NCBI GenBank assembly: GCA_041649955.1
Contig: JBAZMD010000002.1
Coordinates: 7,709 to 71,708, forward strand
DNA: 64,000 bases
Reading direction: 5' to 3'
DNA from: Patescibacteria group bacterium
GTDB lineage: Bacteria > Patescibacteriota > Patescibacteriia > UBA2591 > JAQUPP01
Shown here: one piece after another, positions 6,001 through 12,000 of the stretch
Layout of the letters: each line of letters starts with the position of its first letter
Numbering within the stretch: the first letter of the stretch is position 1
Made by a program: the position numbers

Positions 6001-9000
6001 TTCGCCAAATTCCGGAGAATTTTTCTACGGATTTTTTAATTACTTCGGGTTTAACGCCCAAAGCCAAAGCGCCGGCAGTTGCGGCCAAGACATTGTAAAT
6101 ATTAAAAATTCCCGGAACTTTTAACCGAAAATTGTAAATTTTGCCCTTAAAACATAAATCAAAAATTTGTTCGCCGTGTTTGGTAATAATATTTTTTGCC
6201 ATTACCTCTGCCTGACTTTTAATGCCAAAAGTTATTGTCTTGTTTTTGGATTTAATCTTTTTTAAATTAACATCATCGGCATTTGCAATCAGAATTCCAT
6301 TTTTAGGCAATTTTTTAATATATGTTTTAAAAGTTCTGATTAAATGATTAATGTTTTTATAATAATCAGTGTGATCCAATTCCAAATTATTCAGAATAAT
6401 CATTTTAGGCGACAAATTCAACATATGAGCTCGCCATTCGCAGGCTTCAACCACAAACACAGACTTACGCGGACAGGACACTGACCTACACTGACTGTCT
6501 GTCTTAGTCTGTGTTAAGTCCGTATTAGTCCGTGATATGCGTAGATTTCCATTCCATTGAGGCACCTTGCTTCCGACAATCACTAATGGGTCTATTTTGG
6601 CTTGTTCTAAAATTAAACCTAAAATCGCCGTGGTAGTGCTTTTGCCATGCGTGCCGCTGACAGCAATGGTAAATTTTTCTTTGCTTAATTCTCCCAAAAA
6701 TTCCGGATAAGAAAGCTGAGGAATGGATAATTTTTTTGCTTTTATTCTTTCCGGATTATTTTTTTCCACTGCCGGCGAATAAATAACCAAATCTGTATCG
6801 GCTGACAAATTTTCCGCTTCATGGCCTTGGTAAAATTTAACTCCCATTTTTTCCAGTTTCTTGATTATTTCGGAAGAATTCAAATCAGAGCCAAAAACTT
6901 TTTTGCCCTGTTGAACCATCATTTTTGCCAAAGCGCTGACCCCGATTCCGCCCAAGCCGATAAAATGTATTTTTTTGATTTTTCGCCCGCCTAAATTTTT
7001 TATTGACATAAATAACGTTTAAGTGATTTTTTAATATAATTTCTCCCCCACCCGGATTTAAAAAATCTTTCTCGTTCTTTGGCATCCCCTGAATGAAGAT
7101 ATGCTTCATAATAAACCAAAGTAAATGGCGCTCTTGATTTAGTAGACGTAGACATTTTATTATTGTGTTCTTCTAGTCTCTTTCTTAAATCTTTTGTAAA
7201 GCCAACATAAAATTTACCATCTTTCAAACTGCGCAAAATGTATACGTAATAAAAAATTTTGGCGGGCATGGCTATTATCTTACACTTTTTTTATAAAAAA
7301 AATAGCCCCCTTAATTCAGAGGGCTATTTATTTTATATTCTTCTTCTTTAGTTTCATTCTCTAAAAATTTTATAAATGTCGCTTGCGGACATTTTTCCGG
7401 ATATCGCAAACATTTATGCGTATAGATAGAATGAAGAGCATTTTCCCAATACCTTTTTTTATTTACCGGTATTTTTAATTTTCTAAGAATAATTTCTCCG
7501 TCTATCCAAGCTATCCACTCTGACCAAGGACAACTCACATGATCATCCTTGTCTTTTAACTCCATAGCACAAGCCATAAACTTTTTACGGCGGTATTGCA
7601 AAACATGGCCTATTTCATGTGCTAAACTATTAACTCCTCTCCACCGCAGCCATGGAATATAAATTGCCCTGAGATCCCTAATTTCAACCACATCATGTTC
7701 ACAAACCTTATTGCTACGATTAAAATGAAGTGCCGTATTACTACAAAATGCGCAAGGCAAACCCTTTTCTATGGCTATTCCATTTGATTCAGCATAAGCC
7801 AAAAACTTGGAAAAAACCGGCGACTTTTTTAAGTCGTATAATAATCTCCTGTTCTGATAAGGATGAATCAATCGAAATAAAACCTTATGGCAGAATGGAA
7901 TTAATACGCTAAAAGTCAAAAAATAGGCTAGCCCTACAAATGCTGCTCCAGCTCCGAATAAAATAATAAAAAATATTATTATATTTAAAAGATCCATGAT
8001 CTCCTCCTAGTTTCCAAACTTTATTGTCTGGATTACTATTATTTAAGCATATTTTTTGGTTTTTGTCAAGATCTATTTTTTAAATTAATATATTGAAAAC
8101 ATATAAATTAAAAAGACCCTTGCCGAACAAAAGCAAGGGCCTCAGTTTAAATCTTTCTCTCAATCGTTTTTACGGAAACGAATCAATTGAGTGCCTTCGT
8201 TCCAACTATCCTCAAAAATGCCCAAAAAAAATTCACTGCTGCTTCCCTGATTTTTGAGGGTCGCCACACCATGGACTTTGTCAGAATTTACCCAGAGATT
8301 ATTTTTTTCGTCAAAAGACACTATTAATCCTTGTGGTAATTTATCTCTCTTGATTGCCCATAAAAGAGACAATCCAGGGGCACTGGTAAAAAACTTATCC
8401 TTCCCCTTGCGCAAGAAAGAAATGCAATATTCCGAACTTATTCTATGTTTGGCTATAAAAATATCAACCATACATTTTTCACCCGGTTGAAGCCTATACG
8501 ATACATTCCCAAAGTTTTTATCATTAATTGAATCATCATAGAAACAGAATTCTTGTCCGTGCTCTTTATAAAAATTTTCCAACTGCCCTTTGGAATTGTA
8601 ATCCCCTGGTACTTCTAACTTGATACTTTCCATAAAAACAATTCTTTTATCCATTCTCCCCCCCCTTTTTTTTAATTTTCTATTGTCTATTATATTATAT
8701 CTTTATTTTTTGTCAATCAAATATTTTATTCTAAATTGGATATACTAATTTAACAGACCCTTACCGAAGCAAGGGTCTGAGTTTAATTTTCTACAAAGAG
8801 CTAACTGGAGTTTCCGCATTCACAGAAGCAAAGCAGACAGAAGCTGTCGTTCCAACCATCTTCAAAGCGGCCAAGGCCTAAATTGAATTTGGAAATGTCA
8901 TCAGAACAGCGGAAGATGTTCGCTATGCGGTGGCTACCGTTAGGGTCAACCCAAAGAGCGCTTCGTTCATCAAATGAGACGGACCACTTACCGACTGGAA

Positions 9001-12000
9001 AAACATCTTTAGCTTCTTGCCAAGCTAGGAAAAGTCCTCTGACGCCGGTAAGGATGACGTTCTCTGAATGCAGGAAAGCCAGACAATTTTCCGAGATTAT
9101 GCCTTCCATAACCTGGAAAAATTTGACTTTAAATTTCTCCCCGGGTACAAGTCTCCTTGTCGTTCGAAAGTGTTCATCAGTGACATCCGGATGATAGGAA
9201 TTGAATTCAGAGTAATGTTCTTTCTTGAAGGTGGCCAAGCAAATGTCAGGATTGTATTCTACCGGCACAACCAGATTATCAATAACCTTGATTAGATTGA
9301 AGCGCGGATCTACTTTGACAGACATTTTTTTATCCATCGTTTCCTCCATAATACCGAAATTTAAGTCGTTGACTTTATGCCACAACTTTTTCGGCATTGA
9401 TATTATCTTAAACAAACTTTGGGAGTTTTGTCAATCCTTATATATTCTTTAAAATAATCTCCGCGATTTTGGAAGCGGCATCCGGCTTGGCTAATTTGGA
9501 AATATTTAAACTCAAAACAGAACGTTCACTAACGGAAAAAATCAATTGATGAATTTTCTCTGATAAAATTTTGGGAGTGATATTTTTTTGATTCATTAAA
9601 ACAATTGCTTTTTGCTCTGCAAAATATTGAGCGTTAATTTCTTGATGGGAATCCGGCATTGGAATTATAATCGCCGGCTTACCTAAGATTGACAATTCAG
9701 TTAAAAATCCCATTCCGGCTCGGCTGATAACCAAATCGGCAATCGTTAAAGCGTCCGGCATTGCTTCGTTTAAAAATTCATATTGATGATAATGAGTTAG
9801 AGTTTGTGCAGCTTGTATTTTACTTTTTCCTGTTATGTGAATTATTTGACAAAATTTAACTAATTCAGGAATAATTTCACTGATTAACTTATTGATATTT
9901 TGAGCGCCTGTGCCTCCGCCAACGACTAATAATGTCGGTAAATTATTTTCCAAATTAAATCTTTTAATCGCTCTTTCTTGGGAATAATTTTTAATATCCG
10001 GACGAACCGGATTGCCGGTTAAAATGGTTTTTTCTTTTGGAAAATCATTTAACGATTTTTCCAAGCTGACCGTAATAATTTTGGTAAAAGGAGCCATCAA
10101 TTTATTGGCTAAACCCGGAATAACATCTTGCTGATGAATAAAAATCGGTATTCTAAAAAACCAGCCCGCCCAAACCAAAGGTACGGCGACAAATCCCCCG
10201 GCCGAAACAATGGCTTTTGGCTTATATTTTAAAATTAAAAAAACAGATTGTAAAAAACCTGCAATAATTAAAAATGGAGAAACAAAATTTTGCCAGCAAA
10301 AATAACGGCTCAATTTACCGGAAAAAATCGGTTGATAAGGAATATTATATGATTGAGCCAATTCGCGCTCGGGAATTCCTTTTTTTGTGCCAATAAATAA
10401 AAACTTTGTTTCCGTCCGCCGGCTGGCGGATTGTTTTTCCAGCCCAAGGCTGGTCAGCCTCTGGCTGATAATTTCTTGGCTGATAGCTAAAAGCGGACTT
10501 ACCGAACCGCCCGTACCACCGCCGCTTAAAAATATTCTCATACCAGACAGTATACTATTTTTAGAAAAATTGTCCAAAAAAAATTAGCGCCCGTTTCAAC
10601 AACGAACGCTAAACTTTTTTTCATATTTATTTTTTTCTCCAAAACAACATTCCTCTCTTTCTTCCAGCTTTTACTAATATAATCCGCCACTTATGGAGGT
10701 AGCGGTTCATAGGATCTATAAGCTTTGTTTCTTCTACTTTGTATCCAAGACTTAGGAACGTACCCTGAGACTTCTCAATATTCTTAAATCCTATAACATT
10801 GAGAATTATTCTCTCTTCCATTTTAAATCACCTCCTGATTAATTGACAAATTTTTACTATTTTGGTATTAATTAACTGATTTAATATTAGCATAAAAATT
10901 CAAAAATGTCAAGCCCTGTTTTAAAAATTAATCTCAAAGATAAAAACTATCCCAAATTGCTGAAAGAAATTTATGACCCGCCGCAGAACCTGTACGCCGT
11001 CGGAGAAATCAAGGCGGAAGAAAATTATCCCTTGGCAATTGTCGGAACACGAAAAGTTTCAAGCTATGGCAAGCAAATTACCGTTTCTTTGACCAAAGAT
11101 TTGGTTAAAGCCGGATTAACGATTGTCAGCGGTTTAGCTTTGGGCGTGGACGGATTGGCGCATCAAACAACTCTTGATAACGGCGGCCGAACGATCGCCG
11201 TTTTGGGTTCAAGTCCTGATATTATTTATCCGCCGCTTCATAGAACTTTGGCAAAAAATATTATTAAAAATAACGGAGCAATAGTTTCGGAATATCCGCC
11301 AACCACCTCTCCGACCAGATGGACTTTTCCTGCCAGAAACAGAATTATTGCCGGACTTTCATTGGGAACCTTGGTTATAGAAGCGCCGGAAAAATCCGGA
11401 GCTTTGATTACCGCGCATTCAGCTTTGGATCAAGGACGAGAAGTTTTCGCCGTGCCCGGCAGCATTTACAATCCTAATTCAGCCGGCTGCAATCAACTGA
11501 TTAAAATGGGCGCGAAAGCGGTTACCAAGGCCGAAGATATTTTAGACGCTTTTAATTTGGAATTGTCGGAAAAAATTTCCGAAACACCCGAACCGACCTT
11601 GCCGGAAGAAAAAATATTGTGGAAATTTTTAAGCCACGAGCCCGTACATATTGACCAATTAATTAAATCAAGTAAATTTAGCACCAGTCAGGCCATTGCT
11701 GTCTTGACATTAATGGAAATAAACGGCAAAGTAAAAAACCTGGGAGGCGGAAATTATGTCAAAAACTAAAAATCAAAAAAAATTAATCATTGTCGAGTCG
11801 CCGACAAAATCAAAAACCATTTCTCATTTTTTGGGAGATGAATTTTTAATTGAATCTTCTTACGGCCACATTCGCAATCTTCCAAAAAGCAATAAAAAGG
11901 CCATTGATATTAAAGCTGGATTTATTCCTCATTATGAAATCACCAAAGGGAAAGAAGATGTTGTTTCTAAAATTAAAAGTCTCGCTAAAAACGCAAGTGA

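What the first reader, a model, noticed from the sequence alone, without database searches (positions are those of the whole stretch)
8108..9440. Tandem paralogous genes of unknown function, each with its own promoter and sequence-related terminator
Genes 8160-8654 and 8801-9415 encode clearly paralogous proteins (shared blocks PGEK, GL(S/F)L(L/A)W..K(R)D, SFDE(K/R)..LWV(N/D), FEDxWN(E/D)). Each has its own TTGACA/-10 promoter (8689-8716 and ~9400-9435), and their terminator hairpins are homologous (CCCTTGC..GCAAGGG vs AGACCCTT..AAGGGTCT). The second copy is GC-richer and has a Cys-rich tail (CLLCFCECG). Independently expressed paralogs next to a metallopeptidase gene (7311-7997) are typical of fast-evolving accessory modules, for example surface or toxin/immunity-like families.
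Basis: seen in the sequence. Interest (0 to 1): 0.5.

Follow-up and report, generated by a model that had tools for sequence, protein, structure and literature searches.

The report
Two orphaned retroelement-target lectin-fold genes
The two neighbouring genes are real paralogues of a large, unannotated family of small lectin-fold proteins from ultra-small (Patescibacteria) bacteria; in most genomes a diversity-generating retroelement (DGR) hypermutates this family, but no such element lies within 64 kb here, so both copies look frozen.

Summary
Genes A (8160-8654, minus strand) and B (8801-9337, minus strand; not 9415) are paralogues (37% identity, E 9e-26). Each has a sigma-70-like promoter, and the hairpins after the two genes are homologous.

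The family is a DGR target family:
- In 16 of 29 related loci, the last ~125 nt of the gene (the variable region, VR) recurs ~450 nt downstream as a template repeat (TR).
- 227 of 239 VR/TR mismatches fall at TR adenines.
- A reverse transcriptase (RT) gene was found after the TR in 13 of the 16 loci.
- Two loci have one TR serving two paralogous targets.

The window has no TR and no RT in 64 kb. B keeps a recognisable VR, the family's CLLCFC strand and its GC-richness. A has lost all three. Strain variants show no VR hypervariation.

I conclude these are orphaned, fixed DGR variable proteins. The toxin/immunity, surface and peptidase-module ideas are not supported. This is a new member of a known kind, of moderate interest.

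The parts
9405..9434 (-). Promoter-like site of gene B: TTGACA (9434-9429), 18-nt spacer, TAAGAT (9410-9405)
   Evidence: 10 of 12 consensus positions. It lies directly after the murG stop codon.
8801..9337 (-). Gene B, 178 aa. It is a canonical member of the Patescibacteria DGR variable-protein family. Mechanical ORF extensions reach 9349 (ATG) and 9415 (TTG).
8821..8944 (-). Remnant variable region (VR) inside gene B. This is the only place in the window that matches a DNA profile of 16 template repeats.
   Evidence: nhmmer E 2.6e-12. Aligned with VR/TR pairs, the TR-Asn positions hold S, N, F, C, N, R, D, N, F and E. It carries a 2-codon insertion, and the 3' end reads TGCTTCTGTGAA instead of the family's TGCTTCTGCGAC.
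8754..8779 (-). Hairpin after gene B: CAGACCCTTGC-TTCG-GTAAGGGTCTG, an 11-bp stem with a UUCG-type loop and a weak T-run
   Evidence: Compensatory substitutions and a paired insertion in strain variant L032 keep the pairing.
8689..8716 (-). Promoter-like site of gene A: TTGACA-16-TATAAT
   Evidence: 12 of 12 positions. The 35 nt are identical in L001, although the downstream gene has diverged to 58% amino-acid identity.
8160..8654 (-). Gene A, 164 aa. It is a divergent member of the same family. It has lost the Cys-rich strand, the DNA similarity to VR/TR, and the GC excess.
8113..8143 (-). Intrinsic-terminator-like hairpin after gene A: a 12-bp stem followed by TTTTTAATTT
   Evidence: It is homologous to the hairpin after B. 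Against the orthologous hairpin in L001 the loop is kept and both stem arms have changed while both still fold.

Best explanation
A and B are two tandem members, each with its own promoter-like site, of a large Patescibacteria-specific family of small proteins of about 165-250 aa. The family has no Pfam model. Its members adopt a divergent C-type-lectin-like fold.

In most genomes this family is the variable protein of a diversity-generating retroelement (DGR). The last ~125 nt of the gene form the variable region (VR). That sequence is rewritten from a template repeat (TR) ~450 nt downstream by an adjacent reverse transcriptase (RT) that mutates template adenines. This randomises about ten Asn-templated positions on the ligand-binding face.

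In this genome the retroelement is absent from the neighbourhood, and I infer both genes are frozen:
- B is the more recently orphaned copy. Its VR is still recognisable at the DNA level, its former Asn-templated sites hold a fixed set of residues, and it keeps the CLLCFC strand and the family's GC excess.
- A was orphaned longer ago, before the split from the L001 genome. It has drifted to host composition and lost the Cys motif, but it keeps the fold-determining residues under purifying selection (dN/dS 0.26).

I infer that both act as fixed-specificity binding proteins for unknown ligands. Neither has a signal-peptide-like N-terminus, so they are probably cytoplasmic.

Shown here: paralogy, family membership, the DGR nature of the family, the fold class, and the absence of TR and RT within 64 kb.

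Inferred: a binding function, cytoplasmic location, loss of the retroelement rather than action from elsewhere in the genome, and origin of the pair by local duplication or from a two-target DGR such as the one in L016.
For: Paralogy.

Family size and taxonomy:
- 1267 cluster representatives at E <= 1e-3, of which 307 at E <= 1e-30.
- 26 genome loci, almost all Patescibacteria.

DGR nature of the family:
- In 16 loci the gene's 3' end recurs downstream at 83-93% identity. 227 of 239 mismatches sit at TR adenines, although A makes up only ~25% of TR bases.
- In translation, TR Asn codons face variable residues in the VR.
- A YxDD ORF of over 250 aa was found after the TR in 13 of the 16 loci. 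The three I scanned match Pfam RVT_1, E 3e-26 to 1e-20.
- Short downstream ORFs match only the last ~45 positions of the family HMM.
- One TR serves two paralogous targets in L016 (tandem) and in L014. Paralogue pairs are 46-55% identical.

Window:
- No TR by blastn or by a TR DNA profile, which finds only B's own VR.
- No RT by tblastn with 13 DGR RTs.
- No further family copy.

No sign of ongoing diversification:
- Two other assemblies are 100% identical over 8050-9460.
- In the 94%-identical variant L032, the VR carries five C/T transitions that leave the protein unchanged.

Decay gradient:
- Family genes are GC-richer than their locus in 20 of 24 loci. B is +8.9 points, A +0.9 and the L001 orthologue -2.9.
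- CTT[AGT]G arrays after the stop codon average 3.2 per 60 nt in family loci, against 0.17 in the background. There is 1 after B and 0 after A.

Literature:
- Targets of the CPR 'clade 2' DGRs typically have no transmembrane or known domain, and new C-Lec variants were expected there (PMC8144416).
- The fold of the CPR VR classes UVR1-6 is unknown (PMC5758913).
Against: - Only 64 kb of the genome is visible. The gene pair sits about 8 kb from one end and 55 kb from the other.
- DGRs can act on targets more than 100 kb away (PMC5758913), so a cognate TR/RT elsewhere cannot be excluded for B.
- No ligand or function is known for any member of the family.
- Whether A and B arose by local duplication is unresolved. 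In a neighbour-joining tree, A+P0002+B are monophyletic in only 17% of bootstraps, and B is closer to P0011 (46%) than to A (38%).
- The elevated dS at A (1.10) shows that something other than simple decay happens at this locus. Allele replacement by recombination is one possibility.
Confidence: 0.72

Rival explanations
1. B, and less plausibly A, is still an active target that a DGR encoded elsewhere in the genome, outside the 64-kb window, diversifies in trans.
For: - B's VR still matches the TR DNA profile (E 2.6e-12).
- B keeps the CLLCFC-coding 3' end and a structured hairpin downstream.
- Non-adjacent and remote targets are documented for non-phage DGRs (PMC5758913).
- About a third of the family loci seen here also lack a TR within 6 kb.
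Against: - There is no TR or RT in 64 kb.
- Three assemblies carry identical sequence, and the one divergent strain differs in the VR only by five C/T transitions that leave the protein unchanged.
- B's VR carries a 6-nt insertion relative to every TR seen.
- B has lost the near-universal terminal GCGAC.
- The CTT[AGT]G array that follows the gene in almost all the related loci, with or without a TR, is gone.
Confidence: 0.15
2. B is not a local duplicate of A. It was inserted as a separate promoter-gene-hairpin cassette between murG and the promoter of A, by horizontal transfer from another Patescibacterium. The related hairpins then reflect the family-wide conserved 3' element or gene conversion.
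For: - L001 has murG directly followed by the promoter of A, with no B. In the window the B unit (9434-8717) sits exactly between two TTGACAAAA boxes.
- B is the GC/GC3 outlier of the window.
- B is more similar to distant family members (up to 46%) than to A (38%), and bootstrap support for an A+B clade is weak.
- Similar GAGCCCTTxC-type hairpins follow family genes in unrelated genomes.
Against: - A and B share features that are rare in the family: no N-terminal extension, an MDK(R/K) start, PGEK, and I(S/I)SE.
- Their hairpins share flanking sequence as well as the stem.
- A is on a long branch, which weakens the tree as evidence.
- Loss of B in L001 is equally parsimonious.
Confidence: 0.35
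3. This is the first reader's reading: a toxin/immunity-like or surface accessory module that works together with the adjacent metallopeptidase-like gene.
For: - The genes sit in tandem next to an HExxH membrane protein (7311-7997), and that arrangement is conserved in L001.
- The genes evolve fast.
Against: - No PADLOC, Pfam or PHROG hit.
- The HExxH protein has no homologue in any of the other 28 family loci.
- In other genomes the family sits between unrelated housekeeping genes.
- The N-termini of A and B show no signal peptide. A minority of family members do have one.
- The fast evolution is explained by the family's DGR history.
Confidence: 0.04

Closest known systems
DGR variable proteins with a C-type-lectin fold (Bordetella phage Mtd, Treponema denticola TvpA, nanoarchaeal AvpA)
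   Same: - The C-terminal VR lies in a CLec-type fold. Asn (AAY) codons of the TR are randomised.
- TR and RT lie just downstream in the family's complete loci.
   Different: - There is no detectable sequence similarity.
- These are much smaller single-domain proteins, mostly without a signal peptide.
- They have a conserved C-x2-C-x-C strand at the 3' end of the VR.
- No Avd-like ORF was looked for here.
- The window copies have neither TR nor RT.
CPR/Patescibacteria DGRs: 'clade 2' of Roux et al. 2021 (PMC8144416), and the CPR set with unclassified VR classes UVR1-6 of Wu et al. 2018 (PMC5758913)
   Same: - Same host group, compact target-TR-RT layout, and targets without a transmembrane segment or known domain.
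- This family is very probably among those targets.
   Different: - I could not map it to a named UVR class or protein cluster, because no supplementary files are held.
- Those surveys catalogue targets next to an RT. The window shows family members without one.
Non-adjacent or remote DGR targets (Treponema and others; Wu et al. 2018)
   Same: The target gene is separated from TR and RT.
   Different: Known remote targets keep VRs that match the TR apart from adenine sites, and they show diversification. B's VR has an indel, a decayed 3' end, and no population variation at the expected sites.
[not shown]
   Same: The overall CLec-like alpha/beta topology is shared over 90-100 aligned residues.

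Membership tests
DGR variable (target) protein | Homology to proteins whose 3' VR is paired with a TR | tested here: met
   A and B hit the family HMM at E 2e-54 and 6e-66. The same HMM hits the verified targets in 16 loci.
DGR variable (target) protein | A cognate TR in the same genome that differs from the VR almost only at TR adenines | tested here: not met
   There is none in the 64-kb window by blastn or by a TR DNA profile. The rest of the genome is not available. The scan of metagenome contigs for a TR compatible with B gave 0 hits, but B itself is absent from that collection too.
DGR variable (target) protein | A DGR-type reverse transcriptase nearby | tested here: not met
   tblastn of 13 RTs from family loci against the window gave only spurious hits at E >= 0.04. 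In the family loci, a YxDD ORF of over 250 aa was found after the TR in 13 of 16, and the three I scanned match RVT_1.
DGR variable (target) protein | VR hypervariation among closely related genomes | tested here: not met
   L030 and L031 are identical to the window. In L032 the VR of B has five C/T transitions and an identical protein tail.
DGR variable (target) protein | A conserved IMH-like 3' end of the VR (in this family ...TGCTTCTGCGAC) | tested here: inconclusive
   B reads TGCTTCTGTGAA, which is 2 changes. A is unrecognisable. IMH function was not defined experimentally for this family.
C-type-lectin-like fold (structural superfamily) | Fold similarity of a confident model to CTLD or FGE-sulfatase structures | tested here: met
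   [not shown]
Canonical C-type lectin domain (Pfam Lectin_C) or FGE-sulfatase domain | Sequence match to the family model | tested here: not met
   A and B have no Pfam hit at E <= 1, and none of 80 family members has one at E <= 0.01. The PDB sequence search finds no relative.
Toxin-antitoxin, toxin-immunity or defence module | Match to known defence or toxin models, and a conserved two-gene partnership | tested here: not met
   PADLOC gives none. Neighbours differ between loci, and the HExxH neighbour is not conserved.
Intrinsic (Rho-independent) terminator | GC-rich hairpin followed by a T-run on the transcribed strand | tested here: met
   After A: a 12-bp stem plus TTTTTAATTT. After B: an 11-bp stem but only 4 T in the next 8 nt, so the scan flags it only on the + strand. 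Pairing there is maintained by compensatory changes. Termination itself was not tested.
Sigma-70-type promoter | -35 and -10 hexamers with 16-18 nt spacing upstream of the gene | tested here: met
   12 of 12 positions before A and 10 of 12 before B. The promoter of A is identical in L001. Transcription starts were not measured.

The most novel reading that the evidence does not exclude
Three related readings remain open.
1. After losing their retroelement, these frozen DGR targets keep diversifying by another route. Divergent alleles would be exchanged by recombination between conserved flanking promoters: A has dS 1.10 against 0.22-0.42 for its neighbours, with an identical promoter.
2. The family-wide 3' element is an undescribed cis element. 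It consists of an array of CTT[AGT]G pentamers plus two hairpins between the VR and the TR. It follows the gene in almost all the related loci, with or without a nearby TR, and is missing after A, its L001 orthologue and nearly so after B.
3. Alternatively, B could be a trans target of a distant DGR. That would extend remote targeting to CPR DGRs.
Probability: 0.2. Interest if true: 0.6.

Novelty: new member of a known kind. Interest (0 to 1): 0.4.

Why it matters
It turns two 'hypothetical proteins' into members of a defined family: lectin-fold binding proteins that Patescibacteria normally hypermutate with a retroelement. The family is large (over 1200 clusters at 50% identity), has no Pfam model, and appears to have the C-Lec-type fold that earlier surveys could only suspect for CPR targets.

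The window adds an evolutionary snapshot of what happens to such targets once the retroelement is gone. B is a recently frozen copy and A is an older, ameliorated one, and both are still expressed from their own promoters and under purifying selection. This suggests the proteins are useful even with a fixed specificity. The function of CPR DGR targets, which are possibly intracellular, remains an open question. DGR-less, single-sequence members such as these would be convenient for structural and binding studies.

Tried and rejected
- Pfam, PHROGs, NCBIfam and PADLOC scans of A, B and the HExxH neighbour gave nothing above noise. A Pfam scan of 80 family members also gave nothing.
- PDB sequence searches with A and with the family profile gave nothing.
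- The word-indexed homologue search found only 2 and 8 relatives. The exhaustive profile search was needed to see the family.
- Foldseek against afdb50 was unavailable.
The 12-sequence alignment worked.
- Multi-domain members P0025, P0064 and P0105 gave no informative Pfam domains.
A version with the CLLCFC-coding 18-mer fixed found nothing in the metagenome contigs, not even B itself, so that test is uninformative.
- No supplementary data are held for Wu et al. 2018, so the family could not be assigned to a UVR class. A full-text search for the motif strings found no paper.
- The first bootstrap tree script timed out. The faster version gave weak support for an A+B clade.
- An Rfam scan of 7000-10900 gave only sub-threshold noise.
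- I considered whether the hairpins are a generic terminator type of this genome. The specific flank-plus-stem pattern occurs only at these two sites.
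Full report
**1. What is in the sequence**

The region lies in an AT-rich window (34.9% GC) with Patescibacteria-type gene content. All genes below are on the minus strand except dprA and topA:
- murC: 5501-7009
- a small GIY-YIG ORF: 7000-7269
- a 228-aa HExxH protein with an N-terminal hydrophobic stretch (my reading of the sequence): 7311-7997
- gene A: 8160-8654, 164 aa
- gene B
- murG: 9438-10577
- dprA and topA follow on the plus strand

A and B are clear paralogues: 37% identity over 165 aa, E 9e-26.

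B is listed mechanically from a TTG at 9415. That codon lies upstream of the -10 box of the promoter-like site. The ATG at 9337 is preceded by GGAGG at a 5-nt spacing, it gives an MDKK... start parallel to A's MDKR..., and it is the start called independently in another assembly (178 aa). I therefore take B as 8801-9337.

The promoter-like sites are TTGACA-16-TATAAT at 8716-8689 (12/12) and TTGACA-18-TAAGAT at 9434-9405 (10/12).

The hairpins after the two genes (8143-8113 and 8779-8754) align over stem and flanks. The shared pattern occurs nowhere else in the window.

B has the highest GC and GC3 of all 49 large ORFs (GC3 46.9%, z = 3.1). A is average.

**2. The family**

- No curated library recognises either protein (Pfam, PHROGs, NCBIfam, PADLOC and PDB sequences).
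- The word-indexed search found only ten relatives.
- A profile of those relatives, run against 1.84 billion cluster representatives, found 1267 proteins at E <= 1e-3 and 307 at E <= 1e-30. Most are 165-250 aa.
- None of 80 members has a Pfam domain.
- In a scan of one genome per species, 26 loci were confirmed. Almost all are labelled Paceibacterota, Nomurabacteria, Zambryskibacteria, Jorgensenbacteria, Falkowbacteria, Saccharibacteria, Minisyncoccia or simply Patescibacteria.
- The family consensus ends in ...LGxFExxWxxxxCLLCFCD. B's 'Cys-rich tail' is this family motif. A and its orthologue P0002 have lost it.

**3. Fold**

AlphaFold2 gives very confident models for A (pLDDT 94.8) and B (pLDDT 95.1).

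**4. The decisive evidence: the family is a DGR target**

An HMM of the family, run on all ORFs of the fetched loci, hit the expected genes. In 15 loci it also hit a short downstream ORF that matched only HMM positions ~144-189, the C-terminal 45 residues.

At the DNA level, in 16 loci the last 121-136 nt of the gene recur ~450 nt downstream at 83-93% identity. Of 239 mismatches, 227 lie at adenines of the downstream copy, although adenine makes up only ~25% of those copies.

Translated in register, the downstream copy reads like ADGNHRVPNVNRNSDGDFKFNLGNFENDWNDDNCLLCFC. The gene copy has varied residues exactly at the Asn codons.

A YxDD ORF of over 250 aa (279-388 aa) was found within about 0.2-0.5 kb after the TR in 13 of the 16 loci. 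The three I scanned match Pfam RVT_1, E 3e-26 to 1e-20.

This is the textbook signature of a diversity-generating retroelement (variable region VR, template repeat TR, adenine-specific mutagenesis), as summarised in PMC5758913.

In L016 and L014 a single TR matches two paralogous target genes, both with adenine-specific mismatches. In L016 the two targets are in tandem just upstream of TR-RT. Paralogue pairs in L016, L014 and L003 are 46-55% identical. Tandem paralogues are therefore a recurrent feature of this family.

**5. The state of the window copies**

No TR, RT or further family copy is present in the window:
- blastn of the 3' 190 nt of A and B finds only the genes themselves.
- A DNA profile of the 16 TRs finds a single hit in 64 kb, B's own 3' end at 8944-8821 (E 2.6e-12).
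- tblastn with 13 DGR RTs finds nothing credible.
- No further family copy exists.

B still has a recognisable VR. The positions templated by Asn codons in other loci hold S, N, F, C, N, R, D, N, F and E, which looks like a diversified sequence that has been fixed. However, it carries a two-codon insertion (FNLG-LG-RFE), and its 3' end reads TGCTTCTGTGAA instead of the nearly universal TGCTTCTGCGAC.

A keeps the skeleton (FxLGxFExxWN) but not the Cys strand or any DNA similarity.

Strain comparisons give no hint of ongoing mutagenesis:
- Two other assemblies (L030, L031) are identical over 8050-9460.
- In the 94%-identical L032, B has 27 substitutions spread over the gene. The VR has only five C/T transitions and an unchanged protein tail. 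A has three substitutions.

The close relative L001 has the syntenic order murG - A-orthologue - HExxH gene - murC. It has no B, no GIY-YIG gene, and no TR or RT within 6 kb.

**6. A decay gradient**

- GC excess: family genes are GC-richer than their host locus in 20 of 24 loci, by up to 22 points. B is +8.9, A +0.9, and the L001 orthologue -2.9.
- 3' element: in almost all the related loci, with or without a nearby TR, the ~55 nt between the stop codon and the terminator-like hairpin is packed with CTT[AGT]G pentamers. The mean is 3.2 per 60 nt against a background of 0.17. The region often ends in a small GGGTC-TTTG-GACCC hairpin. B has 1 pentamer, and A and the L001 orthologue have 0.
- Terminator-like hairpin: a 10-12 bp stem with a 4-nt loop and a T-run follows nearly all family genes. 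The stems are related (GAGCCCTTxC-like) and vary through changes on both arms that keep them paired.
- Between the window and L032, the hairpin after B keeps its pairing through compensatory substitutions and a paired T/G insertion.

Together these point to B as a fairly recent orphan and A as an old one.

**7. Evolutionary rate**

Amino-acid identity between the window and L001:

| Gene | Identity |
|---|---|
| dprA | 99% |
| topA | 97% |
| HExxH protein | 89% |
| murG | 86% |
| murC | 79% |
| A | 58% |

For A, dS is 1.10 and dN 0.29 (dN/dS 0.26). The neighbours have dS 0.22-0.42. Yet the 35-nt promoter of A and the promoter region of the HExxH gene are essentially identical in the two genomes.

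The gene is therefore an island of old divergence between conserved flanks. This suggests allele replacement by recombination rather than simple decay. The divergence is not concentrated in the former VR: 65% identity there, against 51-58% elsewhere.

**8. Origin of the pair**

In favour of local duplication:
- Both lack the N-terminal extension that most members carry.
- Both start MDK(K/R).
- They share PGEK and I(S/I)SE.
- Their hairpins share flanks as well as stem.

In favour of separate insertion of B:
- B is absent from L001.
- The B unit (9434-8717) lies exactly between two TTGACAAAA boxes.
- B is compositionally foreign.
- B is closer to distant members (up to 46%) than to A (38%).
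- A+P0002+B form a clade in only 17% of bootstraps.

A third possibility is descent from a two-target DGR like the one in L016 that lost TR-RT. I leave this open.

**9. Interpretation and comparison with what is known**

Earlier surveys reported that CPR bacteria are enriched in DGRs. They also reported that CPR ('clade 2') targets usually have no transmembrane or known domain, and that uncharacterised VR-bearing domains there are probably new C-Lec variants (PMC8144416). For the CPR VR classes UVR1-6 the fold could not be decided (PMC5758913).

The present family fits these descriptions and very probably belongs among those targets. I could not map it to a named class.

The window genes are homologues of DGR targets, but they fail the tests for being an active DGR target here: no TR, no RT, and no VR hypervariation. 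I therefore describe them as orphaned (fixed) DGR variable proteins: lectin-fold binding proteins of unknown ligand, probably cytoplasmic.

The toxin/immunity, surface and peptidase-module ideas find no support.

The main residual uncertainty is a DGR elsewhere in the unseen genome acting in trans on B.

**10. Verdict**

The finding is real and now largely explained. It is a new member of a known kind of system, with moderately interesting evolutionary detail and one possibly new cis element seen in the related loci. Interest 0.4.

Noticed in passing
Loci L004-L029, the ~55 nt after the stop codon of the family gene (e.g. L008 6506-6560, L022 6476-6535); absent at window 8105-8160 and nearly absent at 8746-8801: Arrays of CTT[AGT]G pentamers spaced 7-10 nt fill the gap between the gene's stop codon and its terminator-like hairpin. 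The mean is 3.2 per 60 nt against 0.17 in the background. They follow the gene in almost all the related loci, with or without a nearby TR. The region often ends in a small GGGTC-TTTG-GACCC hairpin. This may be a cis element of this gene family or its DGR.
   Followed up: partly
window 8000-8730 compared with L001 5885-6680: Gene A is an island of old divergence (dS 1.10, 58% amino-acid identity) between promoters that are essentially identical in the two genomes. This suggests allele replacement by recombination.
   Followed up: partly
window 5903-5986 and 6458-6535 (inside murC), and 44116-44163: murC carries two in-frame low-complexity inserts built from ACACAGAC/GTCTGTGT-type inverted repeats. 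One has a second copy (87.5% over 48 nt) inside another ORF at 44018-45328. L001 lacks that insert, but its murC and murG share an 'SKFQIPNS' peptide. These look like small palindromic repeat elements inserted in frame into housekeeping genes.
   Followed up: partly
window 7000-7269 (-): An 89-aa GIY-YIG ORF (Pfam E 1e-14) overlaps the start of murC. It is present in the window, L030 and L031, but absent at the syntenic place in the related genome L001. It may be a mobile, homing-endonuclease-like insertion.
   Followed up: no
It has no Pfam, NCBIfam or PADLOC match. I found a homologue only in L001 (89%) among the fetched loci, and it is not generally linked to the A/B family.
   Followed up: partly
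Proteins P0025 (792 aa) and P0064 (649 aa): These are rare multi-domain members. The family domain (about residues 140-320) is flanked by a shared N-terminal domain. It is followed by two or three repeats of a ~150-aa unit (…EEWLHPDQ…GLxDLxAIxxKGxxFFxxHF…WKS…) that has no Pfam match.
   Followed up: no
L003 5124-5807 and 5986-6729: This is another tandem pair of family genes with no TR or RT within 6 kb. Their VRs are still 85% identical to each other, with mismatches at all four bases. It is a possible second example of an orphaned or remotely targeted pair.
   Followed up: partly
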